Origin: a virus
Lineage: Duplodnaviria > Heunggongvirae > Uroviricota > Caudoviricetes
Virus record (IMG/VR): IMGVR_UViG_643348545_000008
Span: 1 to 40,464 of that record
DNA: 40,464 nucleotides
Direction: 5' to 3' (one strand)
The translations under genes and the position numbers were made by a program. The notes under the pieces are model-generated. The model had not been told where the DNA came from and searched no databases. It saw only the letters and a program-made list of their open reading frames with translations. Every line of letters starts with the position of its first letter. The first letter of the stretch is position 1. Positions 1,767 to 37,539 of the stretch are shown here, piece by piece.

Positions 1767-1783
1767 AAGGTAATGACTCCAAC

Positions 1784-2809: not shown

Positions 2810-3321
2810 GCGAGATTAATTATCAGGAAGGGCATGAAACGGCAGGGCAGGCAAAACCAGTTGCATGGCGATATCGCTACGTGAAAAAAGACGTTACAGA
2901 CTTTCAGGGGAAGCCGTGGGCTGGTGACTGGAAATATGTACCGACAAAAGAGGATTGTAACGACAGGCCGAACTATGAAATTCAGGCCTTATTCATCGGC
3001 CCGCCAGTCCCGGTGACATCAGAAGGACTGGTTAAAGCCGTGCGCTTTTATGAACAGGTAAAGCGTGAGAATCCGCCAGTCGAAACAGGAGCATGGAAGG
3101 ATGCTGTTGACTGGGTGCTCAGAGAGGCCTGCTGCGCTGCCATTCTGGGTAAAGCCGACAATCCACCAGCATCCGGCAATCAGGTTAGCGAATTAACAAT
3201 GTGGGTTAAACGACTGGTCAGTCAACTGAAAAAAGCTCAGCCGGACTGCAAATTACCGGAGAAGGCGATGGATTACCTGAAACGAAATGGACTGATAAGC
3301 GTGGAGGATGTTTTACGATGA
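2806..3321 (+). CDS. Hypothetical prophage protein (171 aa)
   Basis: Long ORF translationally coupled to the upstream small ORF. No family recognised. Confidence 0.55.
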   Translation: MSEINYQEGHETAGQAKPVAWRYRYVKKDVTDFQGKPWAGDWKYVPTKEDCNDRPNYEIQALFIGPPVPVTSEGLVKAVRFYEQVKRENPPVETGAWKDAVDWVLREACCAAILGKADNPPASGNQVSELTMWVKRLVSQLKKAQPDCKLPEKAMDYLKRNGLISVEDVLR

Positions 3322-3441
3322 ATATTTAGACTAAAGAGTTTGTAACGCTATGTAAGTGATTTTTTCTGGTTTAGATATTTATATGTCCGGCCAAATTGAG
3401 GTGTGTTTAAATGTTATTGCACATTGATTGTAGGGGGAATA

Positions 3442-3621
3442 ATGAAAAACGCATTGCAGTTTTTGTTTGTTGCGTTCTGGTTGTTCGCATCATGTATGCC
3501 CATCATCTTCACAGCAAGGTATATGGAAAAAATTGATGTTTTGATATTAATGTTTGGACATATAAATGCCCTTTTTTTAGGGGTGTTCATGGCGGTCATG
3601 TGCATTGAATACTGGCGGTAA
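3442..3621 (+). CDS. Small hydrophobic membrane protein (59 aa)
   Basis: Internal ATG preceded by an agggggaa RBS. Two predicted hydrophobic helices. AT-rich gene with an AT-rich upstream region. Confidence 0.35.
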   Translation: MKNALQFLFVAFWLFASCMPIIFTARYMEKIDVLILMFGHINALFLGVFMAVMCIEYWR

Positions 3622-3879
3622 ATACAGCGAACGCCATTGGTTTAGTTGGATATTTACTGTGCCGGACAAAAACGGTTTGCGGGGAAATCTTAGTTAAGTA
3701 GAATAACTGCGGGTGCTTGAGGCTATCTGTCTCAGGCATGAACACCAAAAGGCAGATAGAGAAAAGCCCCAGTTAACATTACGCGTCCTGCAAGACGCTT
3801 AACATTAATCTGAGGCCATATCTATGCGACACATAGAGATTAGCCTCTTACGGACCGAAAGGTCAAGGAGAAGCAGGCT

Positions 3880-4035
3880 ATGAAGCAGCAAAAGGCGATG
3901 TTAATCGCCCTGATCGTCATCTGTTTAACCGTCATAGTGACGGCACTGGTAACGAGGAAAGACCTCTGCGAGGTACGAATCCGAACCGGCCAGACGGAGG
4001 TCGCTGTCTTCACAGCTTACGAACCTGAGGAGTAA
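3880..4035 (+). CDS. hok: Hok/Gef-family type I toxin (51 aa)
   Basis: MKQQKAMLIALIVICLTVIVTALVTRKDLCEVRIRTGQTEVAVFTAYEPEE is a clear Hok/Gef family sequence. A short upstream ORF ends at ATGA overlapping the start. A terminator follows. Confidence 0.85.
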   Translation: MKQQKAMLIALIVICLTVIVTALVTRKDLCEVRIRTGQTEVAVFTAYEPEE

Positions 4036-4849: not shown

Positions 4850-5899
4850 GTGCGGGTATTACTTCGACCTGTTCTGGTACCGGAACTCGGGCTGGTGATC
4901 GTTAAGCCGGGCCGTGAATCCATGCCGGTATTCCACAATACCCGGGTACTGGTGGAGCCGGAACCGAAAAGCATGCGTAATCTGCCGTCCGGGGTCGTTC
5001 CTGCCGTTCGCCAGCCGCTGGCGGAGGATAAATCATTACTGCCATTTTTCAGCGACGAACGAGTGATTCGTGCTGCTGGTGGCGCTGGCGCATTGTCTGA
5101 CTGGTTACTGCGGCATGTTAAATCCTGCCAGTGGCCACACGGCGATTATCACCACAGTGAAACCGTCATTCACCGTTATGGTACCGGCGCAATGGTGTTG
5201 TGCTGGCACTGCGACAACCAGCTGCGTGACCAGACATCCGAATCACTCGAGCAACTTGCTCATCAAAACCTGTCAGCATGGATGATTGACGTCATCGGTC
5301 ACGCAATAAGCGGTACGCAGGAGCGTGAATTATCTCTGGCTGAATTATCCTGGTGGGCGGTCCGCAATCAGGTGGCGGACGCGCTACCGGAAGCGGTATT
5401 ACGTCGTTCGCTGGGGTTGCGTGCGGAAAAAATCCGCTCAATGTACCGTGAAAGCGACATCGTACCGGGAGAGCAGACCGCCACCAGCATACTGAAACAG
5501 CGCACAAAAAATCTTGCGCCGCTGCCTCACGCCCACCAGCAACAGAACCCACCACAGGAAAAGACGGTGGTCAGCATTGCCGTTGATCCTGAGTCTCCGG
5601 AATCTTTCATGAAACGACCTAAACGTCGCCGCTGGGTTAACGAGAAATACAAACGCTGGGTGAAGACACAGCCGTGTGCGTGTTGTGGTCAGCCAGCCGA
5701 CGATCCCCATCACCTGATTGGTCACGGTCAGGGAGGGATGGGAACAAAGGCCCACGATATTTTCACGCTACCGTTGTGCCGGGAACATCACAACGAACTT
5801 CATGCGGATCCGCTGGCGTTCGAAGAAAAGCATGGTTCTCAGGTTGATTTAATTTTTCGTTTTCTTGATCACGCCTTTGCAACTGGCGTGCTTGGGTAA
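4850..5899 (+). CDS. Nin-region protein, DUF968/YdfU-like, with C-terminal Cys/His HNH-like motif (349 aa)
   Basis: GTG start preceded by a ggaggt RBS. C-terminal CACCGQ...HHLIGHGQGG...CREHHNELH motif. Position immediately upstream of rusA is typical of lambdoid nin regions. The family name is recalled, not searched. Confidence 0.6.
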   Translation: MRVLLRPVLVPELGLVIVKPGRESMPVFHNTRVLVEPEPKSMRNLPSGVVPAVRQPLAEDKSLLPFFSDERVIRAAGGAGALSDWLLRHVKSCQWPHGDYHHSETVIHRYGTGAMVLCWHCDNQLRDQTSESLEQLAHQNLSAWMIDVIGHAISGTQERELSLAELSWWAVRNQVADALPEAVLRRSLGLRAEKIRSMYRESDIVPGEQTATSILKQRTKNLAPLPHAHQQQNPPQEKTVVSIAVDPESPESFMKRPKRRRWVNEKYKRWVKTQPCACCGQPADDPHHLIGHGQGGMGTKAHDIFTLPLCREHHNELHADPLAFEEKHGSQVDLIFRFLDHAFATGVLG

Positions 5900-5911
5900 A
5901 AGAGGTGACTG

Positions 5912-6286
5912 ATGCTCATAGATTTGGTTTTACCTTACCCGCCGACGGTGAACACTTACTGGCGACGCCGTGGCAGCACATATTTTGTATCAAAAGCCGG
6001 GGAGCGTTATCGCCGGGCAGTGGCGCTTATTGTTCGCCAGCAGCGCTTGAAATTAAGCCTGTCCGGACGGTTGGCAATAAAAATTATTGCAGAACCACCG
6101 GATAAGCGCCGCCGTGACCTGGACAATATTCTGAAAGCGCCGCTGGATGCGCTGACGCATGCGGGGTTGCTAATGGACGATGAGCAGTTTGATGAAATCA
6201 ATATCGTTCGTGCTCAGCCAGTATCTGGTGGACGTCTGGGGGTGAAGATTTACCCCATAATGCTTGAAGGGCAGGTCAAAAAATGA
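5912..6286 (+). CDS. rusA: Holliday junction resolvase RusA (124 aa)
   Basis: PYPPTVNTYWRRRG ... RRRDLDNILKAPLDAL ... GGRLGVKI are characteristic RusA motifs. Located just upstream of Q. Confidence 0.85.
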   Translation: MLIDLVLPYPPTVNTYWRRRGSTYFVSKAGERYRRAVALIVRQQRLKLSLSGRLAIKIIAEPPDKRRRDLDNILKAPLDALTHAGLLMDDEQFDEINIVRAQPVSGGRLGVKIYPIMLEGQVKK

Positions 6287-7104
6287 AACTGGAAGATTTA
6301 CCGAAATACTACTCCCCAAAATCCCCCGGCCTGACTGATGCATCGGCCTCAACGTCGAAAGATGCGCTGAGTATCACTGATGTGATGGCCGCGCAGGGCA
6401 TGACACAGAATCGGGCTGAGATGGGGTTTTCTGCGTTCCTGGGGAAAATGGGCATTAGTATGAATGACAGAGAGCGGGCAACAGAATTGCTGACAGAATA
6501 TGCACTCAGTCGGTGCGATCGTGTGGCGGCGTTGAGAAAACTTCCGGCAGAAATAAAACCGGTAGTGATGCGCATTATGGCTTCGTACGCTTTTGAGGAT
6601 TATGCCCGCAGCGCAGCGAGTAAAAAGCAGTGCCCCTGTTGCCGAGGGGAAAAATTTATTGAAGGCGAAGTTTTTACAAACAAGGTTCAGTATCCGGATG
6701 GCAAGCCGCCAGTATGGGCAAAGTGTACGAAAGGTGTGTATCCGTCTTACTGGGAAGAATGGAAAAAAATTCGGGAGGTGGTGAAAGTTTCTTGTCCTGA
6801 ATGTAAAGGGAAGGGGGAGATTTCCACTGCCTGTAAAGACTGCCGTGGGCGTGGTGTCGCCATTCATCGTGAAGAGTCGGTAAAACGTGGTATGCCTGTT
6901 ATCAGAGACTGCCAGCGTTGTGGTGGTCGTGGCTGTGAAAGACTACCATCAACGGAGGCATTTAATGCCATACGCAAAGTGACGAGTGCTATCACGCTTG
7001 ATACGTGGAAAAAATCAGTGAAACGCTTTTACGATACGTTGGTGGTTCGGTTTGACATTGAAGAGGCATGGGCGGAGCGGCAGTTAAAGAGGGTAACGCG
7101 ATAG
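6283..7104 (+). CDS. Late-gene antiterminator Q (Qin/phage-82-type, 273 aa)
   Basis: Overlaps the rusA stop (ATGA). Multiple CxxC zinc-finger pairs and an MKLEDLPKYYSPK N-terminus like QuuQ-type antiterminators. Followed by a promoter-terminator pair. Confidence 0.75.
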   Translation: MKLEDLPKYYSPKSPGLTDASASTSKDALSITDVMAAQGMTQNRAEMGFSAFLGKMGISMNDRERATELLTEYALSRCDRVAALRKLPAEIKPVVMRIMASYAFEDYARSAASKKQCPCCRGEKFIEGEVFTNKVQYPDGKPPVWAKCTKGVYPSYWEEWKKIREVVKVSCPECKGKGEISTACKDCRGRGVAIHREESVKRGMPVIRDCQRCGGRGCERLPSTEAFNAIRKVTSAITLDTWKKSVKRFYDTLVVRFDIEEAWAERQLKRVTR

Positions 7105-8777: not shown

Positions 8778-8853
8778 GGCCCTTTAGCTCAGTGGTGAGA
8801 GCGAGCGACTCATAATCGCCAGGTCGCTGGTTCAAATCCAGCAAGGGCCACCA
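8778..8853 (+). tRNA. tRNA with CAT anticodon, closest to E. coli tRNA-Ile2 (ileX/ileY-like; formally Met/Ile)
   Basis: 76-nt cloverleaf with GGCCCTT/AAGGGCC acceptor stem, anticodon loop CTCATAA, TTCAAAT T-loop and encoded CCA. Confidence 0.8.
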
Positions 8854-8862
8854 TATCACATA

Positions 8863-8939
8863 CCGCCATTAGCTCATCGGGATAGAGCGCCAGCCTTCGA
8901 AGCTGGCTGCGCGGGGTTCGAGTCCTCGATGGCGGTCCA
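8863..8939 (+). tRNA. tRNA-Arg (anticodon TCG)
   Basis: 77-nt cloverleaf with CCGCCAT/ATGGCGG acceptor stem, anticodon loop CTTCGAA, TTCGAGT T-loop and encoded CCA. The discriminator base is unusual. Confidence 0.7.
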
Positions 8940-9217: not shown

Positions 9218-9646
9218 ATGTATTGCCGTGCTGTACCAGTTCTTGTTTTGATATTAGCCAGTCTGACAACTGGCTGCACAAAAGATGTATCGACAAATAA
9301 TTATGATGCTTCTCTGTATCACTCAGATAAATTAATAAAGTCGCAAAATTTGAGCTCATCGGAACGTACCCCTGATGCCAGTGAAGAAATCAGGCAGTAT
9401 GCCATTCAGGTCAGGAAAGCCATAGAAGAACAGTTAAAGGATGCGAGTAAGTATTCAGGAAAAGAGTGTTCACTGAGAATGTATATGGCCCCGAATGGTC
9501 TTCTGCTACAGGTTAAAAGAGAAAGCGGTGATCCCGATTTATGTCGTGAAGCGATGAATGCAGTAAAGAATGCTGATATACCATCACCACCGTCTTCAGG
9601 AGTATATAAAGCATTTAGAAATGGCGTGCTGGATTTTAAACTCTGA
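9218..9646 (+). CDS. Lipoprotein with TolA C-terminal (domain III)-like domain (142 aa)
   Basis: Signal peptide with lipobox-like LTTGC. Residues 55-142 align by eye with E. coli TolA domain III (GKECSLRMYMAPNGLLLQVKRESGDPDLC...IPSPPSSGVYKAFRNGVLDFK versus GKTCTLRIKLAPDGMLLDIKPEGGDPALC...IPKPPSQAVYEVFKNAPLDFK). ggag RBS. Confidence 0.7.
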   Translation: MYCRAVPVLVLILASLTTGCTKDVSTNNYDASLYHSDKLIKSQNLSSSERTPDASEEIRQYAIQVRKAIEEQLKDASKYSGKECSLRMYMAPNGLLLQVKRESGDPDLCREAMNAVKNADIPSPPSSGVYKAFRNGVLDFKL

Positions 9647-10171: not shown

Positions 10172-12160
10172 ATGACATTTAAACACTACGATGTGGTCAG
10201 GGCGGCGTCGCCGTCAGACCTTGCGGAGCGACTGACACAAAAACTGAAGGAGGGGTGGCAGCCATTTGGCAGCCCTGTCGCCATCACGCCTTATACCCTG
10301 ATGCAGGCCATTGCGGCGGAAGGTGATGTCACCACACCTGTGGTGGTGAAGCCGTCGGATGGAGAAGGCACAGTTATCAGCACCACCAGCGAACCGGAGT
10401 ATTACTTTGTTGTTGTTCTGGCGGGGCAGTCAAACTCAATGTCTTTTGGTGAAGGGCTGCCGCTGCCGGAGACATATGACCGTCCGGACCCGCGTATTAA
10501 ACAGCTGGCGCGTCGCAGTACGGTGACGCCGGGTGGTGCCGCCTGTAAATATAACGACATCATTCCGGCAGACCACTGTCTGCATGATGTGCAGGATATG
10601 AGTAACCTGAATCATCCTGAAGCGGACCTTAATAAAGGGCAGTACGGTTGTGTGGGGCATGCTCTGCATGTTGGCAAAAAGCTGCTGCCGTTTATGCCTG
10701 CGAATGCGGGTATCCTTCTTGTTCCATGTGGCCGTGGCGATTCGGGATTTACTGCGGGGGCCGAGGGGGCGTTTAACGCAGCGTCGGGAGCGACCGCAGG
10801 CTCGTCCCTGTGGGGGGCGGATAAACCGCTGTATTATGACCTGGTCAGCAGAACCCGTGCGGCCCTGAAGAAAAATCCGAAGAACGTGCTGTTATCAGTG
10901 ATCTGGATGCAGGGAGAAAAAGATGTCAGTTCGGGGAGACATGCAGAACACAATGCGCTTTTCCTTGCCATGGTAAATCAGTTCCGTACGGAACTGGCAG
11001 ATGTGGCAGAGCAGTGTACTGGCGGGACAACGGCCAGCGTCCCGTGGATTTGCGGTGATACCACGTACTACTGGAAGGAAAGGTATGCAGCGCCGTATGA
11101 GGCGGTTTACGGTGGGTATAAAGGCAAAGCTGCGCAGAATATTCACTTTGTGCCGTTGATGACGGATGAGCATGGTGTGAATGTGCCGACAAACGAGCCG
11201 TCAGAAGATCCGGACATTATCCCGGCGGGATACTATGGCGCTGCGTCACGCACTGCCAGTAACTGGACGTCAGCCGATCGTAAAACGCACTTCAGTTCAT
11301 GGGCGCGAAGAGGCCTTGTTTCAGACCGCCTGGCAGGTGCCATTTTGCAGTACGCCGGGCGGACATTATCGTTCCTTACCGGGCAGAGCGCACCGCAGTC
11401 GGGTGGTACAACTCCCGGTGATGATGTCAGTCCGGGGGTACCGGGTGTTGAGAAACCGCAGGATGGCGGTGTTGCTGGTACTGGTCATGATGAGGCCGTG
11501 AGCAGTACCAGGACGGTGGCTGAATATGATGCGAACAGTGGAAATGGTGTATGGACAGAGCAGCAGTGGGGGGCTGCCGGTGGCAAAGGCACTGTGACTG
11601 ATGACGGTGGACGGAAAGCGCTGCGACTGGAAAAACAGCCCGGTAAACTGACGTCCTGGAAAATGTTCTGTACTGTTGCAGTGGAGGAGGCAAAAAATCT
11701 TCTCAGCAAGGGGGGTGAAATTGCCGTACGGTTCAAAATTCCGGACGGAAGCGAACTGGTGAACGGACAGTTTGTCTTTGGTCTCTACTGGCCGGTGTCG
11801 CAGTGGGCGTCAGGCGCGGCAGCAAACAGTATGCTGGCATCATTCTTCCTTCAGACGGATGCATCAAATCTGAATCTTATGCACCACAAGGGCACGTCGA
11901 ATGCACAACTGGGTACATTTGGTGCGTTTGACCATAACTGGCATACGGTTGTTTTCCGCTTTGCGGGAAATAACAGCGAAAGAGTCGTTCCGGTGATTGA
12001 TGGTACAGAGCAGACGGCGTTTGACCTTGTGATGTGGACAAATGATGGCTTTACAGCAGATACGCTGACGCTGACAGATATCACGGGGGCAAAAGCGACG
12101 TATCCGGTACTGCTTGATACGGTCACAGTCAAAGTTAACGAAAGCCGGGCATCATCATAA
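10172..12160 (+). CDS. nanS-p: Prophage sialate O-acetylesterase, NanS-p-like (DUF1737 N-terminus + SASA esterase domain, 662 aa)
   Basis: N-terminal MTFKHYDVV...GWQPFG module. VVLAGQSNSMSFGEG serine-esterase motif. gggagga RBS. Sits between the Q-tRNA region and the lysis genes, as nanS-p does in Stx-type prophages. Confidence 0.75.
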   Translation: MTFKHYDVVRAASPSDLAERLTQKLKEGWQPFGSPVAITPYTLMQAIAAEGDVTTPVVVKPSDGEGTVISTTSEPEYYFVVVLAGQSNSMSFGEGLPLPETYDRPDPRIKQLARRSTVTPGGAACKYNDIIPADHCLHDVQDMSNLNHPEADLNKGQYGCVGHALHVGKKLLPFMPANAGILLVPCGRGDSGFTAGAEGAFNAASGATAGSSLWGADKPLYYDLVSRTRAALKKNPKNVLLSVIWMQGEKDVSSGRHAEHNALFLAMVNQFRTELADVAEQCTGGTTASVPWICGDTTYYWKERYAAPYEAVYGGYKGKAAQNIHFVPLMTDEHGVNVPTNEPSEDPDIIPAGYYGAASRTASNWTSADRKTHFSSWARRGLVSDRLAGAILQYAGRTLSFLTGQSAPQSGGTTPGDDVSPGVPGVEKPQDGGVAGTGHDEAVSSTRTVAEYDANSGNGVWTEQQWGAAGGKGTVTDDGGRKALRLEKQPGKLTSWKMFCTVAVEEAKNLLSKGGEIAVRFKIPDGSELVNGQFVFGLYWPVSQWASGAAANSMLASFFLQTDASNLNLMHHKGTSNAQLGTFGAFDHNWHTVVFRFAGNNSERVVPVIDGTEQTAFDLVMWTNDGFTADTLTLTDITGAKATYPVLLDTVTVKVNESRASS

Positions 12161-27724: not shown

Positions 27725-30700
27725 ATGGCGACGTTACGTGAACTGATTATCAAAATTTCGGCAAATTCGCAGTCATTCCAGTCGGAGATCCAGCGGGCTT
27801 CCCGCATGGGCAGTGAATATTACCGGACCCTGCAGAATGGCGGGCGTCAGGCTGCCGCAGTCGCCCGGGAGCAGCGACGCGCCCTGGCTGAGCTGAACAG
27901 CCAGTTGACGGAAATCCGCGCTTCAGCTGCCGGAACGGCGGGGGCATTTGCAGGTGCCTTTGCCACCGGGCACCTGATTTCTCTGGCCGATGAATGGAGT
28001 TCCGTGAATGCCCGACTGAAACAGGCGTCGCAGTCATCCGATGAATTTTCGTCATCACAGAAAGTGCTGATGGATATCAGCCAGCGGACGGGCACGGCAT
28101 TTTCAGATAATGCGGCCCTGTTTGCCCGCTCGGCAGCCTCAATGCGTGAATATGGCTACAGTGCCGGTGATGTACTGAAGGTGACGGAGGCCATTTCCAC
28201 GGGGCTGAAAATCTCCGGTGCCAGTACGGCAGAGGCGGGCTCGGTGATCACCCAGTTCAGCCAGGCGCTGGCACAGGGTGTGTTACGCGGTGAGGAATTT
28301 AATTCGGTCAATGAAAGCGGAGACCGGATCGTACGTGCACTGGCTGCGGGTATGGGCGTGGCCCGTAAAGACCTTAAGGCGATGGCGGACGACGGCAAAC
28401 TGACGGCGGATAAAGTCGTTCCTGCGTTAATCAGCCAGCTGGGGGTATTGCGTGATGAATATGCCGCCATGCCGGAAACGGTTTCCGGTAGTATCACAAA
28501 GGTGGAAAACGCCTTTATGGCCTGGGTGGGTGGCGCGAATGAAGCCAGCGGAGCGACGAAAACGCTCTCCGGCGTGCTGAACGGTGTTGCCGGACATATT
28601 GATAATGTGGCAACAGCCGCGGGGGCGCTGGTTGCCGTCGGGGTTGCCCGGTACTTTGGCAATATGGCCTCCGGAGCGGTGTCTGCCACGGCAGGACTTG
28701 TGACGGCAGCACGTAATGAAGTGGCACTGGCGGAAGCACAGCTCAGGGGGACGCAGATTGCCACGGCGCGGGCAAGGGCAGCCGTGTACCGTGCACAGCA
28801 GGCTGTGGCGGCAGCCCGCGGGACGGAGATGCAGATTGCTGCAGAAGCCCGTCTGGCGGCCACACAGGAACGCCTGAACAGAAATATTGCTGCCAGAACC
28901 GCAGCCCAGAATGCGCTGAACAGTACAACGGCGGTGGGCTCACGTCTGATGACTGGTGCGTTGGGACTGGTTGGTGGCGTACCCGGACTGGTGATGCTGG
29001 GGGCAGCAGCATGGTATACGCTGTACCAGAATCAGGAGCAGGCCAGGGAGTCAGCGCGCCAGTATGCACTGACGATAGATGAAATCGCGCATAAAACGCC
29101 GTCAATGTCTTTGCCTGAAGCCTCAGATAATGAAGGACGAACACGGGCGGCGCTGGCAGAGCAGAACCGGCTGATTGATGAACAGGCCAGCCGGGTGAAA
29201 TCCCTGCAGGAAAAAATCGCTGGATATCAGTATGTTCTGGCTAACCCTGGCTGGACAACCGGTGACGGATTCATGATAAACCATCTGACATCGGTGAAGA
29301 CCGTAACGGAAGGGCTTTCTCAGGCAACAGAGCAGCTTGCCGTTGAGCAGTCCCGTCTGGCACAGATGCAGGAAAAAGCGCAGTCCATTCAGGATGTGCT
29401 TGCCGGGCTGGAAGACCGTCGTGTGGCGTTAATTCGTCAGCAGGCGGCAGAGCAGAATAAGGTGTACCAGTCCATGCTGGTTATGAACGGTCAGCATACG
29501 GAATTCAACCGTCTGCTGGGGCTGGGGAATGAACTGCTTCAGCAGCGTCAGGGACTGGTGAATGTACCGTTACGGCTGCCGCAGGCCACCCTGGATGATA
29601 AACAGCAGAGCGCCCTGACAAAAACAGAACGTGAGCTGGCCCTGTCCCGACTGAAGGGGGAGGAAAAAGAGCGTGCCCGGCTGGGGTATGCGGCGGATGA
29701 CCTTGGTTTTGTGGGGGATTCGTATCAGGAGGCGAGACAGCGTTATATCAGTAATGCTCTGGAAGCCTGGCGTAATAACGAGGCGAACAAACCTAAATCC
29801 CGGGGTGGAAAATCAGAGACGGAAAAAGCGGAAGACAGTTTCTCCCGGCTACTGAAGCAGCAGAAAGAGCAACTGGCACTGGCGGGTCAGAATACAGAGC
29901 TGGCGAAGCTGAAGTACCAGACTGCGCAGGGCGAACTGAAAACCCTGACGGAGATGCAGAAGCATGAACTGCTGCGTAACGCGGCCCTGATTGACCAGCA
30001 AAAAATCCGGGAACAGTTGCGATCCCGGGAAGAGACCCTGAAGAATGATAATGTGGCTGCGCGTGCATCAAATGAAGCCGAACTGCTGGGATACGGGCAG
30101 GGAGAACGAGCCAGGGAACGCATGCGGGAGTTGCAGCAGATCCGCGACAGCTTCCGCCAGAAGGATGCGGACCTTCAGTCTCAGTATCAGACCGGGGATA
30201 TCAGTGAGGATTTTTACAGACAGGCACGGGCACAGAACGCGCAGTATCTGAGCGAACGCCTTAAGGACCAGGCAGCCTTTTATGCCGAATCGGATGCGCA
30301 GCGTGCGGACTGGCAGAAAGGCTTGCAGGAGGGGCTCAGTAACTGGGTGGATAATGCGTCCGATTACGCCTCTCAGGCAGCACAGCTTGCGACGGAGGGT
30401 ATCTCAGGGATGGTGAATAACATCACGGAGATGCTGAACGGGAATAAAGTGGAATGGCGCAACTGGGCCTCATCAGTGCTGCAGGAAATATCAAAAGTTC
30501 TTATGAATGCCGCGATTGTCAACGGGATCAAGACGGCGGCAAACAGTATGTCCGGTGCAGGAGGATTTATTGGCAGTATTGGTGACTGGCTGGGCGGTGC
30601 GGTGGCCAATGCAAAAGGCGGCGTGTATACCTCGGCAAACCTGAGTGCGTACAGCAACAGCATTGTGGATACGCCCACGTACTTTGCCTTTGCAAAAGGG

Positions 30701-30967
30701 GCCGGGCTGATGGGGGAAGCCGGACCTGAAGCCATAATGCCCCTGACCCGGGCGGCGGATGGCTCGCTGGGCGTACGTGCCGTGGGCAGGATGAACGGGA
30801 GTGCGGGTCTGGTGTATTCCCCGGTCTACCACATCGCCATTCAGAATGACGGGGCCAACGGTCAGATAGGGCCGGAGGCGGCAGGCAGCCTTGTGCAGCT
30901 GATTGACCAGCGGGTGCAGGCGGTGATGCTGTCCATGCGACGAGACGGAGGAATGCTGAGTGGCTGA
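27725..30967 (+). CDS. Tail tape measure protein (lambda H-like, 1080 aa)
   Basis: Very long Ala/Gln-rich alpha-helical protein between G/GT and M. Confidence 0.85.
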   Translation: MATLRELIIKISANSQSFQSEIQRASRMGSEYYRTLQNGGRQAAAVAREQRRALAELNSQLTEIRASAAGTAGAFAGAFATGHLISLADEWSSVNARLKQASQSSDEFSSSQKVLMDISQRTGTAFSDNAALFARSAASMREYGYSAGDVLKVTEAISTGLKISGASTAEAGSVITQFSQALAQGVLRGEEFNSVNESGDRIVRALAAGMGVARKDLKAMADDGKLTADKVVPALISQLGVLRDEYAAMPETVSGSITKVENAFMAWVGGANEASGATKTLSGVLNGVAGHIDNVATAAGALVAVGVARYFGNMASGAVSATAGLVTAARNEVALAEAQLRGTQIATARARAAVYRAQQAVAAARGTEMQIAAEARLAATQERLNRNIAARTAAQNALNSTTAVGSRLMTGALGLVGGVPGLVMLGAAAWYTLYQNQEQARESARQYALTIDEIAHKTPSMSLPEASDNEGRTRAALAEQNRLIDEQASRVKSLQEKIAGYQYVLANPGWTTGDGFMINHLTSVKTVTEGLSQATEQLAVEQSRLAQMQEKAQSIQDVLAGLEDRRVALIRQQAAEQNKVYQSMLVMNGQHTEFNRLLGLGNELLQQRQGLVNVPLRLPQATLDDKQQSALTKTERELALSRLKGEEKERARLGYAADDLGFVGDSYQEARQRYISNALEAWRNNEANKPKSRGGKSETEKAEDSFSRLLKQQKEQLALAGQNTELAKLKYQTAQGELKTLTEMQKHELLRNAALIDQQKIREQLRSREETLKNDNVAARASNEAELLGYGQGERARERMRELQQIRDSFRQKDADLQSQYQTGDISEDFYRQARAQNAQYLSERLKDQAAFYAESDAQRADWQKGLQEGLSNWVDNASDYASQAAQLATEGISGMVNNITEMLNGNKVEWRNWASSVLQEISKVLMNAAIVNGIKTAANSMSGAGGFIGSIGDWLGGAVANAKGGVYTSANLSAYSNSIVDTPTYFAFAKGAGLMGEAGPEAIMPLTRAADGSLGVRAVGRMNGSAGLVYSPVYHIAIQNDGANGQIGPEAAGSLVQLIDQRVQAVMLSMRRDGGMLSG

Positions 30968-31301
30968 GATAAAAACGCTGCATCTGGTCCCGCGTGAAGG
31001 GATGCAGGTGAGTGAGAAACCGTCGGTGGTGAGGGTCCGGTTTGGTGACGGTTATGAACAGCGCCGACCGACGGGACTGAATGCCCAACTGAAGACGTTT
31101 CAGGCGGTGTTCCGGGTGACGGATGAGGCGACCCGGCGCTGGCTGGATGAATTTTTATCGTGGCATGGTGGTTACCGTGCCTTTTTGTGGCGACCGCCGA
31201 AACATAACCGGACGGTGAGGGTGGTGTGCCGGGAGTGGAGTATTACGGATAACGCCAGGTACAGCGATTTCAGTTGTATGATGGAACAGGTAATAAGATA
31301 A
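30960..31301 (+). CDS. M: Minor tail protein M (113 aa)
   Basis: VRFGDGYEQRRPTGLNAQLKT ... HGGYRAFLWRPP resembles lambda gpM (VRFGDGYSQRAPAGLNANLKT ... HGGWKSFLWTPP). Confidence 0.8.
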   Translation: MAEIKTLHLVPREGMQVSEKPSVVRVRFGDGYEQRRPTGLNAQLKTFQAVFRVTDEATRRWLDEFLSWHGGYRAFLWRPPKHNRTVRVVCREWSITDNARYSDFSCMMEQVIR

Positions 31302-31507
31302 GTTTTTGAGAAAAAACCTAAAAGCATCGTTTATTAATTTGCTTGCTTGTTATTTTTGTTTTGTCTTGACATAAAGTGCTATCAAAGTTGTTTTTTTACA
31401 TTTTGAAACAAAATAAAAATTGAACCCGTAATTTAATTTACAATATTTTGAGTTTTGTTCATGACATCTCTATGCATGAATAGTTCAGTTTAAATAAGGA
31501 TTAAATC

Positions 31508-32671
31508 ATGAAAAAAATGACAGTGGCACTTTCAGCTGTGGCAGCAGCTGTAATTTTTGCAGCGGGGGCGCAGGCTGCAGAAGTATACAATAAAGATGGC
31601 AATAAACTTGATGTGTATGGGCGTGCAACTGCACTCCATTATTTCTCCAGTGATAAGGGGGATGATGGAGATAAGACATACGCACGTCTGGGCTTTAAAG
31701 GTGAAACTCAGATTAATGACCAGTTGACTGGTTTTGGTCAGTGGGAATATCAGTTCTCTGGTAATAAAGCTGAATCAGAGGGTGCTGCGGGTAATAAAAC
31801 CCGTCTTGCATTTGCAGGTCTGAAGTTTGGTGAGTTTGGCACCATTGATTATGGTCGTAACTATGGTATTGCGTACGATGTTGGTTCTTATACTGACGTA
31901 TTACCAGAGTTTGGCGGTGATGGCTGGACCCAGACCGATAACTTCATGACAGCCCGTACTTCCGGGGTATTAACCTATCGTAATACAGATTTCTTTGGGC
32001 TTGTCGATGGCCTGAATTTTGCGGCACAGTACCAGGGTAAAAATGATCGGGGTGATCTCCGGAAAGCTAATGGTGATGGTCACGGTTTCTCAGCCAGTTA
32101 TGAATATGAAGGTTTTGGTATCGTTGCCGCATATATTAATGCGGACCGAACCAATAATCAGGAAAAAGGTCTGAATGGTACTCTGACGATTGAACAAACT
32201 GATCCTTTAACCGGTAAAGTGACTGAAAAGCAGATCGTTGTTGATTCCGGTAGTGTTGCAAAAGGTAAACACGCTGAGATGTGGGGAGTCGGACTAAAAT
32301 ACGATGCTGACAACCTTTACCTGGCTACAACATATTCCGAAACTCAGAATCTGACGACCTTTGGTGATAAAGGAGTTGCAGATAAAGCGCAAAACTTTGA
32401 AGCGGTACTGCAGTATCAGTTTGATTTCGGTCTGCGTCCATCTCTGGCATTCCTGCAGTCTCGTGCTCAGGATGTCATTGTAGGTGGTAAAAACTATGGT
32501 GACCAGGATTTGGTTAAGTATGTTGACGTAGGTGCGAAATATTACTTCAATAAAAATATGTCCACCTATGTTGATTATAAAATCAATCTGGTTGATGAGA
32601 ATAAGTTTACCAGGGATGCGGGCATTGCAACGGATGATATCGTTGCTGTTGGTATGACTTATCAGTTCTGA
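31508..32671 (+). CDS. Outer-membrane general porin, OmpC/NmpC/Lc family (387 aa)
   Basis: Signal peptide ending [19 protein letters not shown]-terminus. Conserved PEFGGD and [13 protein letters not shown] motifs. C-terminal ...YQF. Confidence 0.85.
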
Positions 32672-32829
32672 TGATTACTGGTAAATAAATACAGGCCATC
32701 TGCCCTCACAGATGGCCTGTATCAGTGGAAGTTATATTTCCACTGGTCACTGCGATCAGCTATTAGCTGATTTAATTTTCATTTTATTACCTTCATCGTT
32801 TTTGATTTTTTAATTGAACTATTTTATCA

Positions 32830-32852
32830 GGGGCGCATTGCGCCCCTTTTTT
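32830..32852 (+). terminator. Intrinsic terminator at the right end of the porin insert
   Basis: ggggcgc-att-gcgcccc hairpin plus tttttt, 10 nt upstream of L. Confidence 0.55.
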
Positions 32853-32866
32853 ATGGGTGGATGTTT

Positions 32867-33565
32867 ATGCAGGAGATCAACGAAGAAAGCCTGAATGAGT
32901 CGGTTAAATCAGAGCAGTCACCGCGGGTGGTACTCTGGGAAATTGACCTGACGGTGCAGGGTGGTGAGCGGTATTTTTTCTGTAATGAGCTGAATGAAAA
33001 AGGGGAGCCGGTCACCTGGCAGGGGCGGAAGTACCAGGCATACCCGATTGACGGCAGCGGCTTTGAGATGAACGGGAAAGGGAGCAGTGCCCGCCCGTCA
33101 CTGACGGTGTCGAATCTGTTCGGGCTGGTTACCGGGATGGCGGAGGATTTGCAGAGCCTGGTGGGGGCCACGGTGGTTCGTCGCCGGGTGTATGCGCGTT
33201 TTCTGGATGCGGTGAATTTTGTGGCAGGCAATCCGGAGGCTGACCCGGAGCAGGAGCTGACGGACCGCTGGGTGGTGGAGCAGATGTCGCAGCTCACAGC
33301 CATGACGGCCTCGTTTGTGCTGGCGACACCGACGGAGACGGACGGTGCGTTGTTTCCCGGCCGCATCATGCTGGCGAACACCTGTATGTGGACCTACCGC
33401 TCTGATGAGTGTGGTTACACGGGCGGGGCGGTGGCGGATGAGTTCGATAAACCCACCACCGATATCCGTAAGGACAGATGCAGCAAGTGCATGCGCGGGT
33501 GTGAACTGCGCAGGAATGTCGGCAATTTTGGCGGTTTCCTTTCCATTAATAAACTTTCGCAGTAA
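32867..33565 (+). CDS. L: Minor tail protein L (about 232 aa)
   Basis: VVLWEIDLTVQGGERYFFCNELNEKGEPVTWQGRKYQAYPI is near-identical to the lambda gpL N-terminus. Ends GNFGGFLSINKLSQ. Confidence 0.85.
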   Translation: MQEINEESLNESVKSEQSPRVVLWEIDLTVQGGERYFFCNELNEKGEPVTWQGRKYQAYPIDGSGFEMNGKGSSARPSLTVSNLFGLVTGMAEDLQSLVGATVVRRRVYARFLDAVNFVAGNPEADPEQELTDRWVVEQMSQLTAMTASFVLATPTETDGALFPGRIMLANTCMWTYRSDECGYTGGAVADEFDKPTTDIRKDRCSKCMRGCELRRNVGNFGGFLSINKLSQ

Positions 33566-35073: not shown

Positions 35074-35106
35074 CAGGCATCCTCCGGGGTGCCTGTTGTT
35101 TTTTGG
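35074..35106 (+). terminator. Hairpin plus T-tract, candidate terminator just upstream of J
   Basis: caggca-(10 nt)-tgcctg followed by ttgttttttgg. Confidence 0.4.
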
Positions 35107-35147
35107 GCATAAACAGATTCAGACATCAGACAGGAGAGGGGGACAGA

Positions 35148-37539
35148 GTGGGTAAAGGTGGCGGCAAGGCACACACGCCTCGTGAGGCGAAGGATAATCT
35201 CAAATCCACGCAGATGATGAGCGTGATTGATGCCATTGGTGAGGGACCGATAGAAGGTCCGGTGAAGGGACTGCAGAGTATCCTGGTGAACAAAACCCCG
35301 CTGACGGACACGGACGGTAATCCCGTGATACACGGTGTGACCGCCGTCTGGCGTGCCGGGGAGCAGGAGCAGACACCACCGGAAGGCTTTGAGTCCTCCG
35401 GAGCTGAAACTGTACTGGGTGTGGAAGTGACGAAGGCAAAACCGGTGACACGCACCATTACGTCAGCGAACATTGACCGCCTGCGGGTGACCTTCGGGGT
35501 GCAGTCACTGGTGGAGACCACGTCAAAGGGTGACCGTAATCCGACGTCTGTCCGCCTGCTGATTCAGCTTGAGCGTGGTGGTAAATGGATGACGGAAAAG
35601 GATGTCACCATTAACGGCAAGACCACCTCGCAGTTCCTGGCGTCGGTGATTCTGGATAATCTGCCGCCCCGGCCCTTTAACATCCGGATGGTCAGGGAGA
35701 CGGCGGACAGCACCACGGACCAGCTGCAGAATAAGACGCTCTGGTCGTCATACACCGAAATCATCGATGTGAAACAGTGCTACCCGAACACGGTCATTGT
35801 GGGGCTGCAGGTGGATGCGGAGCAGTTCGGCGGCCAGCAGATGACGGTGAACTACCATATCCGTGGTCGCATCATCCAGGTGCCGTCAAACTATGACCCG
35901 GAAAAACGCACGTACAGCGGTATCTGGGACGGCAGTCTGAAACCGGCATACAGCAACAACCCGGCCTGGTGTCTGTGGGACATGCTGACTCACCCGCGCT
36001 ACGGCATGGGAAAACGCCTGGGGGCGGCGGATGTGGACAAGTGGGCGCTGTATGCCATCGGGCAGTACTGCGACCAGACGGTCCCGGATGGTTTCGGGGG
36101 CACAGAGCCGCGGATGACCTTTAATGCGTACCTGGCACAACAGCGTAAGGCATGGGACGTGCTCAGTGATTTCTGCTCGGCGGTTCCGGATTAACGCACC
36201 GGCAGCGCCTGCCGGTGTTGAACTGACGCCGGGGTATTTTCAGATAACGGCAGTCCCGCGTCTTGCGGTGTATGACCCGACGGTGCAGTTTGAGTTCTGG
36301 TTTTCGGAGGCAAAAATTGCAGACGCCGCACAGGTGGAAACCTCTGTCCGTTATCTGGGGACCGGCAGTCAGTGGAGTGTCTCCGGTCCGCACATTAAGC
36401 CCGGAAAGGATTTCTGGTTTTATGTGCGCAGCGTCAACCTGGTGGGTAAATCTGCTTTTGTGGAAGCCAGTGGACGGGCGAGCAATGATGCTGCGGGCTA
36501 TCTGGAACTTTTCCGGGAAAAGATAGGAAAACTGCATCTGGCAGAGGCGCTGTGGGCAGAGATTGACAACAGTCAGCTGAAGGACGAGATGGCGGAAATG
36601 CAGACCACCATCACCGAAACCCGCAATGAAATCACACAGACGGTCAGTAAAACGCTGGAGGACCAGAGCGCCACCATACAGCAGATACAGCGCGTGCAGA
36701 AGGACACAAATGATGACCTTGCTGCACTTTACATGCTGAAGGTACAGAAAACAAAAAATGGCATACCCTATGTTGCCGGTATTGGAGCGGGGATTGAGGA
36801 TACTGATGGCCAGCCCCTGAGCAACATACTGCTGCTGGCTGACCGTATTGCGATGATTAACCCGGAGGACGGCAACACCACGCCGTTATTTGTGGCGCAG
36901 GGGAATCAGTTGTTCATGAACGATGTGTTCCTGAAGCGACTGTTTGCGGTGAGTATCACCTCGTCCGGCAATCCCCCGACGTTTTCCCTGACGCCGGAGG
37001 GCAGGCTGACCGCAAGAAATGCTGATATCAGCGGTAACGTGAATGCGAATTCCGGGACGCTCAACAACGTCACGATTAACGAGAACTGTCGGGTTCTGGG
37101 AAAACTGTCCGCGAACCAGATTGAAGGCGATCTCGTTAAAACAGTGGGCAAAGCTTTCCCCCGGGATTCCCGTGCACCGGAGCGGTGGCCATCAGGGACC
37201 ATTACCGTCAGGGTTTATGACGATCAGCCGTTTGACCGGCAGATTGTTATTCCGGCGGTGGCATTCAGTGGCGCTAAGCATAAGAGAGAGCATACTGATA
37301 TTTACTCCTCATGCCGTCTGATAGTGCGGAAAAACGGTGCTGAAATTTATAACCGTACCGCGCTGGATAATACGCTGATTTACAGTGGCGTTATTGATAT
37401 GCCTGCCGGTCACGGTCACATGACACTGGAGTTTTCGGTGTCAGCATGGCTGGTAAATAACTGGTATCCCACAGCAAGTATCAGCGATTTGCTGGTTGTG
37501 GTGATGAAGAAAGCCACTGCAGGCATCACGATTAGCTGA
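35148..37539 (+). pseudogene. J: Central tail fibre / host-specificity protein J with internal out-of-frame deletion (N-terminal part 35148..36194, C-terminal part about 36190..37539)
   Basis: First ORF matches the lambda J N-terminus (KAHTPREAKDNLKSTQ ... [10 protein letters not shown]) then stops. A second ORF in another frame matches the J C-terminal third ([19 protein letters not shown] ... [10 protein letters not shown] ...). About 400 central residues are absent. Confidence 0.7.

What the first reader, a model, noticed from the sequence alone, without database searches (positions are those of the whole stretch)
31302..32860. OmpC-family porin gene inserted as a self-contained unit inside the tail operon between M and L
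Seen: about 200 bp of AT-rich sequence with promoter-like elements precede a 387-aa porin with signal peptide and canonical N- and C-terminal porin motifs. A perfect 12-bp inverted repeat (32691..32720) and a hairpin plus T-tract terminator (32830..32852) follow, ending 10 nt before L. Established: lambdoid prophages carry porin morons (NmpC, Lc), but usually near Q or the lysis genes; in lambda M and L are contiguous. Inference: lysogenic conversion that changes outer-membrane permeability or removes or alters a phage receptor. The terminator in front of L-K-I-J could attenuate tail-tip expression unless Q antitermination overrides it.
Basis: partly seen in the sequence, partly recalled or inferred. 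Interest (0 to 1): 0.55.

Follow-up and report, generated by a model that had tools for sequence, protein, structure and literature searches.

The report
Phage porin cassette with anti-porin RNA tail
A prophage carries, wedged between two tail genes, a complete outer-membrane porin gene whose conserved untranslated tail resembles the known phage RNA IpeX and is complementary to the host's ompC and ompF messages, so it probably swaps the host's porins for the phage's own.

Summary
A 387-aa porin gene (31508..32671) sits between tail genes M and L. It is low in G+C and ends in a strong terminator.

It is not an artefact. The same cassette, at the same junction, occurs in about 2% of complete E. 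coli genomes (111 of 5426). It also occurs in 29 IMG/VR contigs and one Citrobacter assembly, as deeply diverged alleles. None of 50,697 deposited phage records has it.

The porin is under strong purifying selection (dN/dS 0.06-0.11) and has one hypervariable surface loop.

A covariance model of this 3'UTR finds the ipeX regions downstream of nmpC/lc in DLP12, PA-2 and P7 (E 1e-6 to 1e-9). IpeX is reported to repress OmpC and OmpF.

The seed is complementary to the translation start regions of host ompC and ompF (z -3.4 to -6). It is not complementary to ompA or to the cassette's own porin.

Best reading: a porin-replacement moron of the Lc/NmpC-IpeX kind, at a new genomic position. Expression and repression are inferred, not shown.

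The parts
30960..31301 (+). Tail gene M. Its last codons were altered by the insertion: ...EQVIR* here, against ...EQVVN* in empty sites.
   Evidence: Pfam Phage_min_tail, E 3.9e-28. Junction comparison.
31302..31507 (+). AT-rich 5' regulatory region and 5'UTR of the porin gene.
   Evidence: G+C 0.25. Conserved blocks among 10 alleles. No consensus sigma-70 hit.
31366..31386 (+). Block matching 18 of 21 bases of the K-12 ompC-micF intergenic sequence next to the micF promoter (TTGACATTCAGTGCTGTCAAA; the marbox region, identified from memory).
   Evidence: one match in the window, none in 100 shuffles.
31395..31410 (+). A 16-nt exact copy of the first 16 bases of the K-12 ompC upstream sequence TTTACATTTTGAAACATCTA. 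From memory this is the OmpR C1 site. It is a candidate OmpR box.
   Evidence: The core TTTACAT is invariant in the cassette alleles.
31420..31449 (+). Weak candidate promoter: TTGAAC, an 18-nt spacer, then TATTTT (8 of 12 consensus positions). Both hexamers are conserved among alleles.
   Evidence: Read. Below the threshold of the scan. Inferred only.
31508..32671 (+). Porin CDS, 387 aa. Signal peptide at 31508-31576. Hypervariable surface loop at about 32168-32254 (residues 221-249).
   Evidence: dN/dS 0.06-0.11.
32672..32852 (+). Conserved structured 3'UTR, an IpeX-family element.
   Evidence: Consensus fold (RNAalifold) with 8 compensated pairs. Covariance-model hits to ipeX regions. Fold z -8.45. 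Evolves about 5 times slower than synonymous sites.
32689..32722 (+). The loop is complementary to the GAGGG of the ompF and ompC Shine-Dalgarno sequences.
   Evidence: The same loop sequence occurs in a hairpin of the DLP12 and P7 3'UTRs.
32723..32745 (+). Hairpin 2, a 10-bp stem.
   Evidence: Four of its pairs show compensatory changes among the cassette alleles.
32754..32772 (+). Hairpin 3. It is preceded by the invariant GUCACUGC at 32746-32753.
32769..32798 (+). Unpaired conserved seed GAUUUAAUUUUCAUUUUAUUACCUUCAUCG. It is complementary to ompF mRNA positions -17..+9 and ompC mRNA positions -14..+12.
   Evidence: JC distance 0.13-0.16 against dS 1.3-1.4.
32765..32853 (+). Sub-threshold, full-length resemblance to MicF (RF00033): 26.8 bits against a gathering score of 79.
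32829..32852 (+). Intrinsic terminator GGGGCGC-AUU-GCGCCCC followed by U6. The stem is invariant in all cassette alleles.
32853..32866 (+). Remnant of the original 3' end of M. It keeps a Shine-Dalgarno-like GGGTGG for L.
   Evidence: Compare GGTGGTGAACTGATG in the empty site with GGTGGATGTTTATG here.
32867..33565 (+). Tail gene L. Probable start at 32867.
   Evidence: Pfam Phage_tail_L, E 2.1e-92. RefSeq annotations of homologues.

Best explanation
This is a porin-replacement moron, a cargo unit inserted into the phage genome. About 1.56 kb was inserted into the last codons of tail gene M. It carries three things:

- an upstream region that retains motifs of an enterobacterial ompC-micF intergenic region;
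- a functional general porin of a distinct clade, closest to Lc/NmpC;
- a 185-nt structured 3'UTR of the IpeX family, ending in a strong terminator.

Proposed mechanism in the lysogen: the porin is made and inserted into the outer membrane. The 3'UTR acts either as part of the porin mRNA or after processing. It pairs through its unpaired seed, and perhaps through the CCCUCA loop, with the ribosome-binding regions of host ompC and ompF mRNAs and lowers their expression. The cassette's own mRNA escapes because it has a different Shine-Dalgarno region.

The expected outcome is a cell whose major porins, which are common phage and colicin receptors and antibiotic entry routes, are replaced by a phage-encoded porin with a variable surface loop.

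The terminator insulates L-K-I-J from this transcription in the lysogen. During lytic growth, Q-modified polymerase is expected to read through it.

What is shown: the anatomy, its recurrence, selection on the protein and on the RNA, the similarity to ipeX regions, and the complementarity.

What is inferred: promoter activity, porin expression, and repression of OmpC and OmpF.
For: Insert and junction:
- Related phages have M and L overlapping.
- The cassette sits at the identical junction in all 10 loci inspected and in 29 of 29 IMG/VR loci.
- It is present in 111 of 5426 complete E. coli genomes.

Protein function:
- Full-length Porin_1 match. Solved OmpC structures match at E 1e-128.
- dN/dS is 0.06-0.11 with dS up to 1.4.
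- Variation is concentrated in one loop that carries indels.
- The porin is intact in a decayed prophage remnant and in this window, where J is disrupted.

RNA element:
- The fold z-score is -8.45.
- 8 of 45 pairs are compensated among 9 alleles.
- Across both porin clades, 93% of cells are paired against 71% in shuffles, and 36 of 45 pairs show double changes, reached by 0 of 500 shuffles.
- The seed and terminator evolve 8 to 30 times slower than synonymous sites, while the spacer between them is near neutral.

IpeX kinship:
- The model built only from M-L cassettes hits the stretch starting at or within about 20 nt of the porin stop codon. Scores are 48 bits (E 1e-9) in P7, and 34-40 bits (E about 1e-6) in DLP12, PA-2, other lambdoid phages and 50 IMG/VR loci.

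Targeting:
- The 30-nt seed gives -21.5 kcal/mol against ompC and -18.9 against ompF. It gives -13.5 against ompA and -10.8 against its own start region.
- None of 300 shuffled seeds and none of 70 real translation start regions does as well on ompC or ompF.
- The other cassette alleles tested (the L003 and L008 seeds), DLP12 ipeX and the P7 element show equivalent complementarity.
Against: - No expression data exist here. No consensus promoter was found.
- The upstream profile is not significantly similar to the lc/nmpC or ompC upstream regions as a whole.
- Reviews say that IpeX does not act by base-pairing with ompC or ompF (PMC3617542), or not only by it (PMC12197685). The pairing mechanism is therefore contested for the founding member.
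- AU-rich seeds pair promiscuously when long stretches are used. With the full 60-nt unpaired region, the cassette's own start region scores as well as ompF.
- The covariation counts come from a model-fitted alignment.
- The receptor used by this prophage is unknown, so the benefit of self-exclusion is speculative.
Confidence: 0.68

Rival explanations
1. A plain porin moron. The porin is the only cargo. The conserved 3' hairpins and terminator only stabilise the mRNA and insulate the tail genes, and have no effect on host porins.
For: Morons typically carry their own terminator. Stable 3' hairpins protect mRNAs (established knowledge). No functional data exist for this element. Reviews deny simple base-pairing for IpeX.
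Against: The most conserved part outside the terminator is an unpaired stretch, not a hairpin. Its JC distance is 0.13-0.16, against 0.7-0.95 for the neighbouring spacer. That stretch is specifically complementary to ompC and ompF, and not to ompA or the cassette's own mRNA. Related ipeX regions are reported to repress OmpC and OmpF.
Confidence: 0.17
2. The 3'UTR acts in cis. It would control the cassette's own porin mRNA (stability, translation, or 5'-3' pairing) or the translation of L, rather than host genes.
For: GAUUUAAU in the seed is complementary to AUUAAAUC in the cassette's own ribosome-binding region. With long windows the cassette's own start region scores -28 to -34 kcal/mol. A Shine-Dalgarno sequence for L lies just after the terminator.
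Against: With the conserved 30-nt core, the cassette's own start region is indistinguishable from background (z -0.5; 22 of 70 real start regions do as well). The same architecture occurs downstream of nmpC/lc, where no tail gene follows.
Confidence: 0.08
3. A late lytic function. Because the cassette is co-oriented with the tail operon, it would be expressed mainly from the Q-dependent late transcript and serve the lytic cycle rather than the lysogen.
For: It has the same orientation as M and L, unlike nmpC/lc, which converge on Q. No consensus promoter was found.
Against: The porin stays intact under purifying selection in defective prophages that cannot complete a lytic cycle: this window, where J is split, and the L013 remnant. 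Conserved upstream motifs and a dedicated terminator fit autonomous expression. Changing outer-membrane porin content minutes before lysis would have little effect (inference).
Confidence: 0.06
4. An assembly artefact or an accidental host-derived fragment with no function.
For: The composition is foreign to the flanks.
Against: Identical junctions occur in 111 complete genomes, 29 IMG/VR contigs and a Citrobacter assembly. The alleles differ by dS up to 1.4, yet the ORF stays intact.
Confidence: 0.01

Closest known systems
Lc (phage PA-2) / NmpC (DLP12, P7) porin gene with its ipeX 3'UTR
   Same: - A phage-borne general porin, 72% identical to Lc and 70% to P7 NmpC.
- It is followed directly by a structured 3'UTR of about 170-190 nt: three hairpins, an unpaired U/A-rich seed containing UUAUUACC, and a GGGGCG-type terminator.
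- Papers report that ipeX is made as part of the porin transcript and lowers OmpC and OmpF.
   Different: - Position and orientation. Lc/NmpC lie between Q and the lysis genes and converge on Q. This cassette lies between tail genes M and L and is co-oriented with them.
- The porins form a separate clade, at most 72% identical, with its own hypervariable loop.
- The primary sequence of the 3'UTR is hardly alignable. BLAST finds nothing. Only the covariance model does.
- The seed of this allele also covers the start codon.
MicF (RF00033), the chromosomal antisense RNA of ompF
   Same: The seed block UUUAUUACCxUCAU, the CUAUUU motif before the terminator and the overall length all align with MicF. 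The predicted pairing is with the same ompF region, -17..+9. The cassette's upstream region keeps two motifs of the ompC-micF intergenic region.
   Different: The score is 26.8 bits against a gathering score of 79. It is not an independent gene divergent from ompC. It is embedded in the 3'UTR of a porin mRNA on the same strand. It carries three extra 5' hairpins and is predicted to pair with ompC as well.
Classical lambdoid morons in the tail region (lom, bor, HK97/HK022 morons; from established knowledge)
   Same: An insert between genes that are adjacent in relatives, with deviant composition, its own terminator, and an outer-membrane protein as cargo.
   Different: No porin cargo or M-L insertion point was found in the 50,697 phage records searched or in the papers searched. 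The cargo here includes a regulatory RNA.
3'UTR-derived regulatory RNAs of enterobacteria (for example CpxQ, SroC; from established knowledge)
   Same: A seed located between the stop codon and the intrinsic terminator of an mRNA. It would share the terminator as an Hfq-type 3' end.
   Different: It is phage-borne and is aimed at paralogues of the gene that carries it.

Membership tests
General bacterial porin (Pfam Porin_1, OmpC/OmpF/PhoE/Lc type) | Full-length match to the family profile above the curated cut-off | tested here: met
   PF00267: 465 bits against a cut-off of 23.7, covering profile positions 1-337 of 337.
General bacterial porin (Pfam Porin_1, OmpC/OmpF/PhoE/Lc type) | Cleavable signal peptide, the loop-3 PEFGGD constriction motif and a C-terminal aromatic residue | tested here: met
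   The mature N-terminus aligns with residue 1 of solved OmpC. LPEFGGD and ...TYQF are seen in the alignment. Cleavage itself was not tested.
General bacterial porin (Pfam Porin_1, OmpC/OmpF/PhoE/Lc type) | Trimeric 16-strand barrel that conducts solutes | not testable with these tools
   Only homology to solved OmpC, OmpK36 and OmpF chains, E 1e-115 to 1e-128.
Moron (autonomous insert in a phage operon) | Lies between two genes that are adjacent in related phages | tested here: met
   152 phage records match only the flanks. M and L overlap in the empty sites.
Moron (autonomous insert in a phage operon) | Base composition different from the neighbouring genes | tested here: met
   G+C 0.25-0.46 against 0.55-0.65.
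Moron (autonomous insert in a phage operon) | Own terminator | tested here: met
   Top terminator-like site at 32829-32852, invariant among alleles. Termination activity was not tested.
Moron (autonomous insert in a phage operon) | Own promoter active in the lysogen | tested here: inconclusive
   No consensus sigma-70 site. Conserved TTGAAC-18-TATTTT and an exact 16-nt OmpR-C1-like box. Activity is not testable here.
IpeX-type porin-mRNA 3'UTR regulator | Lies between the stop codon of a phage porin gene and its intrinsic terminator | tested here: met
   32672-32852. The same position in every related locus that had the sequence.
IpeX-type porin-mRNA 3'UTR regulator | Sequence and structure similarity to ipeX of DLP12 and PA-2 | tested here: met
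   Covariance model from the M-L cassettes: DLP12 and PA-2 36.8 bits (E 6e-7), P7 48.2 bits (E 1e-9), all full length. Shared helices with covariation. Plain BLAST finds nothing. The relationship is therefore distant, and common descent versus convergence is not settled.
IpeX-type porin-mRNA 3'UTR regulator | Lowers OmpC and OmpF expression | not testable with these tools
   Only the predicted complementarity.
MicF (Rfam RF00033) | Score at or above the Rfam gathering threshold | tested here: not met
   26.8 bits against 79.
MicF (Rfam RF00033) | Independent gene transcribed divergently from ompC | tested here: not met
   The element lies downstream of the porin gene on the same strand. K-12 micF is upstream and divergent.
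MicF (Rfam RF00033) | [quoted passage not shown] | tested here: met
   -18.9 kcal/mol over ompF -17..+9, reached by 0 of 300 shuffles. 19 of 21 antisense identity.
Lc/NmpC moron of lambdoid phages | Located between Q and the lysis genes, converging on Q | tested here: not met
   This clade is always M-porin-L. The clade at about 68% identity always has Q downstream on the opposite strand.

The most novel reading that the evidence does not exclude
Phage porin genes as a class would carry an antisense regulator in their 3'UTR that silences the host's major porins by direct base-pairing. This covers Lc/NmpC near Q, NmpC of P1-like phage-plasmids, and this new M-L clade.

The pairing would use a MicF-like linear seed plus a CCCUCA anti-Shine-Dalgarno loop. 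This would settle the 20-year-old question of how IpeX works, since reviews say it does not base-pair. Here DLP12 ipeX shows blocks of 9 and 15 nt complementary to the ompC leader at -32..-6.

The M-L cassette would then be an independent, widespread and unannotated second home of such a 'swap the porin' module. Its upstream region derives from an ompC-micF locus and may still answer to OmpR.
Probability: 0.4. Interest if true: 0.72.

Novelty: new variant of a known kind. Interest (0 to 1): 0.55.

Why it matters
OmpC and OmpF are the main entry routes for beta-lactams and other small hydrophilic antibiotics. They are also receptors for many phages and colicins.

A prophage cassette that replaces them with a variable phage porin would alter antibiotic permeability, phage susceptibility and surface antigenicity in about 2% of sequenced E. 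coli, including many Shiga-toxin-producing (STEC) strains. Genome annotation currently calls the gene simply 'ompC' and does not annotate the RNA at all.

The finding also offers a concrete, testable base-pairing model for IpeX-type regulation. And it shows that a tail operon can host a cargo unit that carries its own regulatory RNA.

Tried and rejected
- **BLAST against ipeX.** Plain BLAST of the 3'UTR against the DLP12 ipeX region found no alignment outside the coding end. The relationship appeared only with the covariance model.
- **Upstream profile.** An nhmmer profile of the upstream region found nothing significant in the lc, nmpC, ompC or ompF upstream regions. I therefore claim only two short exact or near-exact motifs. 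The full 20-nt C1 site does not match within 3 mismatches.
- **Long-window duplex energies.** Energies computed with the whole 60-nt unpaired region were uninformative, because the cassette's own start region and background scored alike. I replaced them with the conserved 30-nt core and controls. One background run timed out.
- **Genome-wide motif scan.** The genome-contig scan with the degenerate seed motif was far too unspecific.
- **Primary literature.** The original IpeX paper (PMC1347279, PubMed 16385048) is not held. What I say about it rests on later papers and on memory. A first literature search for 'IpeX' returned only the human IPEX syndrome.
- **EAEC 042 porin.** I looked for the 'phylogenetically distinct porin Ec042-2121' (PMC2808357). 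The prophage I inspected there has an empty M-L junction. The link stays open.
- **MicF membership.** Rejected on score and on genomic context.
- **Receptor of J.** The receptor-binding domain of J could not be assigned. It is 98.7% identical to that of phage 2G7b and 43% to that of lambda.
Full report
**1. What is there**

The window encodes a lambdoid prophage, with these features:
- integrase at 1-1131;
- a Q-family antiterminator at 6283-7104;
- lysis, terminase and head genes;
- a 1080-aa tape measure at 27725-30967;
- M at 30960-31301;
- L from 32867;
- then K, I, J, lom and a tail fibre.

Between M and L lies a 1.56-kb segment of low G+C, 0.25-0.46 against 0.55-0.65 in the flanks. It contains one ORF, 31508..32671, of 387 aa. 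This ORF is a full-length Porin_1 protein (E 1.8e-139). Its mature part aligns end to end with solved OmpC, OmpK36 and OmpF structures (E down to 1.7e-128).

The likely start of L is the ATG at 32867. And no consensus sigma-70 promoter is detectable upstream.

**2. It is a real, recurrent insert**

Among 50,697 phage records, 152 match the M and L flanks at 90-95% identity, and none contains the insert. In these empty sites the M stop overlaps the L start (TGATG). A more sensitive search of the phage records finds only NmpC/Lc/OmpD-type porins, at no more than 73% DNA identity.

In complete E. coli genomes the picture is different:
- The cassette covers at least 80% of the query in 89 of 5426 genomes.
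- Its 3' non-coding part is found in 111 genomes at 120 places. All are chromosomal and none is annotated.
- All ten loci I inspected have the order M-porin-L with the same junctions. These include a different M and tape-measure lineage (L008, L009), a decayed remnant next to IS66 in which the tape measure and L are pseudogenes but the porin is intact (L013), and a Citrobacter farmeri assembly (L020).

In IMG/VR, the 29 loci with at least 80% porin identity all have L downstream. M is upstream in 28 of them, and the remaining one starts at a contig end. The 51 loci at about 68% identity are the NmpC/Lc type. All 50 of those that reach far enough have a convergent Q gene instead.

The junction comparison suggests that the insertion fell within the last codons of M. 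The C-terminus of M changes from ...EQVVN* to ...EQVIR*. The 14 nt before L (GGGTGGATGTTTATG) look like the old 3' end of M (GGTGGTGAACTGATG), so L keeps a Shine-Dalgarno sequence although translational coupling to M is lost.

**3. The porin is functional and old**

The ten alleles are 84-90% identical to the window protein. Lc of PA-2 is 72% identical, P7 NmpC 70%, K-12 OmpC 64% and OmpF 61%. A search of a very large protein collection shows the same gap: a cluster of E. coli alleles at 76-93%, then NmpC/Lc/OmpD at 69% or less.

Pairwise dN/dS is 0.06-0.11, while dS reaches 1.3-1.4. This means long divergence under strong purifying selection.

Variation is concentrated in one segment, residues about 221-249. 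There the alleles differ by insertions or deletions of 0 to about 29 residues. This segment falls in the gap of the alignment with solved OmpC. By homology, and from my memory of the OmpC topology, it is an external loop, probably L5.

In this window the prophage is defective. J is split by a deletion of about 1.08 kb (35103-36194 and 36124-37539), and the early region is very short. The porin is nevertheless intact.

**4. The 3' region is one structured, conserved RNA element**

Aligning nine alleles from the stop codon to the T-tract gives a consensus fold with:
- hairpin 2, 10 bp;
- an invariant GUCACUGC;
- hairpin 3, 7 bp;
- an unpaired stretch of about 55 nt;
- an invariant terminator.

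Eight pairs show compensatory double changes, and almost none is broken. Several pairs are G-U on the + strand, which would be mismatches on the other strand. This points to an RNA read from the + strand.

The window sequence folds at -67.6 kcal/mol, against -35.0 +/- 3.9 for shuffles (z -8.45).

The rates give an internal control for window versus L003 or L008, where dS is 1.3-1.4:

| Part | JC distance |
|---|---|
| whole 3'UTR | 0.26-0.28 |
| seed | 0.13-0.16 |
| terminator | 0.045 |
| spacer between seed and terminator | 0.72-0.95 |

The seed and the helices are therefore constrained, while the spacer drifts almost neutrally.

**5. It belongs with ipeX**

Rfam gives only a sub-threshold, but full-length, match to MicF (26.8 bits against a gathering score of 79). 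The shared blocks are UUUAUUACCxUCAU, CUAUUU and the terminator.

The region downstream of nmpC in DLP12 is where papers place the 167-nt ipeX. Reading it shows the same plan: three hairpins, one of them with the same CCCUCA loop; an unpaired CCUUCUGUUAUAUAUUACCCUUUAUUUUU; and a GGGGCG...CGCCCC terminator. PA-2, other lambdoid phages and P7 have this plan too.

A covariance model built only from the nine M-L alleles finds these regions full length, starting at or within about 20 nt of the porin stop codon:
- P7: 48.2 bits, E 1.3e-9;
- DLP12, PA-2, PhiR70_1 and ev207: about 36.8 bits, E about 6e-7;
- 50 of 51 NmpC/Lc-type IMG/VR loci: 34-40 bits;
- all 29 M-L loci: 187-244 bits.

On an alignment of 24 distinct sequences from both clades, 93.3% of cells are paired. 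Shuffles give 71%, and shifting one strand of each pair by 1-3 columns gives 38-46%. Thirty-six of 45 pairs show double changes, a level reached by 0 of 500 shuffles. The caveat is that this alignment was fitted to the model.

Rfam has no family for the DLP12 ipeX region. That explains why nothing stronger than MicF appeared.

Papers describe ipeX as made from the phage porin promoter as part of the porin transcript. They report that it represses OmpC and OmpF.

**6. Predicted targets**

RNAduplex energies (kcal/mol) with the conserved 30-nt core against translation start regions:

| Seed | ompC | ompF | ompA | own porin |
|---|---|---|---|---|
| window | -21.5 (-14..+12) | -18.9 (-17..+9) | -13.5 | -10.8 |
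| L003 type | -24.9 (-31..-4) | -15.4 | -8.9 | -8.6 |
| DLP12 ipeX | -26.1 | -18.6 | -9.6 | -11.9 |
| P7 | -20.8 | -23.4 | -9.1 | -6.6 |

The DLP12 ipeX pairing with ompC consists of blocks of 9 and 15 nt, AAAUAAAGG and AUAUAACAGAGGGUU.

Two controls were used: 70 real start regions from K-12 and from a prophage, and 300 dinucleotide-preserving shuffles of each seed. The ompC values lie at z -4.2 to -6.0, reached by no control. The window-allele ompF value lies at z -3.4, also reached by no control. The cassette's own start region and ompA are within background. BLAST shows the same antisense matches, for example 19 of 21 to ompF -3..-23.

The cassette's own mRNA has AAGGA instead of GAGGGU(U)AAUAA, which would let it escape.

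This complementarity contradicts the statement in reviews that IpeX does not base-pair with ompC or ompF (softened). I could not read the original paper. I therefore present pairing as the most likely mechanism, not as an established one.

**7. Upstream region**

Among the alleles, the conserved blocks are TTTACAT, TTGAA(C/T), AATATTTT, a 5'UTR block G(T)TCATGACA...ATGAATAGTTCA, and AAGGA before the ATG.

Two motifs match the K-12 ompC-micF intergenic region, in the same order and orientation:
- a 16-of-16 identity with the start of TTTACATTTTGAAACATCTA, at 31395-31410;
- an 18-of-21 identity with the sequence next to the micF promoter, at 31366-31386.

Each was absent from 100 shuffles. That the first is the OmpR C1 site and the second the marbox region is from my memory.

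A weak TTGAAC-18-TATTTT lies just downstream. The lc, nmpC and P7 upstream regions show similar blocks by eye, but a profile search is not significant. Autonomous, possibly OmpR-dependent transcription is therefore an inference.

**8. How it most likely works, and what it is**

Taken together, the cassette is a porin-replacement module of the Lc/NmpC-IpeX kind. It sits at a different genomic position and orientation, carries a separate porin clade, and has a distantly related 3'UTR.

It fits the definition of a moron, except that promoter activity is unproven. It is not a MicF family member. It probably works like MicF or MicC on ompF and ompC.

The strong terminator would keep L-K-I-J silent in the lysogen. 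A Q-family antiterminator is encoded, so read-through in the late phase is expected from lambda biology.

From memory, PA-2 uses OmpC as its receptor, and lysogens that make Lc lose OmpC. By that analogy, a benefit through exclusion of OmpC- and OmpF-dependent phages and colicins is plausible. The receptor of this prophage's J is unknown.

**9. Novelty**

I found no paper that describes a porin between M and L. One genome paper mentions an extra, distinct porin of unknown function in EAEC 042, which I could not locate.

RefSeq labels the gene 'porin OmpC' and leaves the RNA unannotated.

The kind of system, a phage porin plus ipeX, has been known since 2006. The position, the clade, the breadth (about 2% of complete E. 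coli genomes) and the explicit antisense seeds are new as far as these searches show.

Noticed in passing
window 35103-37539: The host-specificity gene J is split into two ORFs (35103-36194 and 36124-37539) by a deletion of about 1.08 kb relative to the near-identical prophage in E. coli G1/2. The early region between the integrase (1-1131) and the DUF968/RusA/Q genes (4850-7104) is also unusually short. The prophage in this window is probably defective, yet the porin cassette is intact.
   Followed up: partly
L007 (K-12 DLP12) 1864-2029, minus strand; L005 ompC leader: The published ipeX region of DLP12 contains blocks of 9 and 15 nt complementary to the ompC 5'UTR at -32..-6 (-26.1 kcal/mol, reached by 0 of 300 shuffles). 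Reviews state that IpeX does not base-pair with ompC.
   Followed up: partly
window 32726-32745 against L006 2221-2240: Hairpin 2 of this allele matches, 19 of 20, the antisense of the K-12 ompF coding sequence at about +244..+263 (the conserved GQWEYNF codons; BLAST E 9e-4). Other alleles lack this match. It may be a relic of a porin gene fragment, or chance.
   Followed up: no
window 32746-32753 and 31519-31527: The octamer GUCACUGC between hairpins 2 and 3 is invariant in all alleles. From memory, it resembles the 5' seed of RybB (GCCACUGC). It is complementary to the GCAGUGGC found in the ompC and ompF leaders. The cassette's own coding start contains ACAGUGGCA, a possible RybB-type target. 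This was not tested statistically.
   Followed up: no
L013 (E. coli DETEC-P1056) 1-3900: A decayed prophage remnant flanked by IS66 and other transposase fragments. The tape measure and L are pseudogenes, but a 373-aa porin and its 3'UTR are intact. This suggests that the cassette is retained for the host's benefit.
   Followed up: partly
L017 (phage P7) 2638-2828; plasmid hits: The P1-like phage-plasmid P7 carries nmpC with the same 3'UTR plan. Its seed contains the 12-mer UUAUUUAUUACC, which is identical to MicF. Ninety-nine of the E. coli matches to the porin were on plasmids, probably of this type.
   Followed up: partly
window 9218-9646: An ORF of 142 aa with a TolA C-terminal domain (E 5.7e-23). 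It lies between the tRNA genes downstream of Q (tRNA-Met 8778-8853, tRNA-Arg 8863-8939) and the NanS-p-like esterase gene (10172-12160). Stx phages carry their toxin genes at this position. It may be another cargo gene that interferes with Tol-dependent uptake.
   Followed up: no
L155 (IMG/VR): This locus combines a porin 97% identical to the window's with an M gene of the 83% type and a 3'UTR of the other seed type. Porin, 3'UTR and tail genes therefore recombine as separate modules.
   Followed up: no
window 37060-37536: The receptor-binding domain of J is 98.7% identical to that of phage 2G7b, which carries an NmpC-type porin near Q. It is only 43% identical to that of lambda J. A link between this J type and porin-swap modules, for example OmpC as the receptor, is conceivable but untested.
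   Followed up: partly
window 31293-31301: In this allele the new 3' end of M (GGTAATAAGATAA), read on the opposite strand, is CUUAUCUUAUUACC. This again resembles the MicF/IpeX seed. Other alleles lack it, so it may be chance, or a remnant of a truncated divergent micF at the left edge of the captured ompC-micF segment.
   Followed up: no
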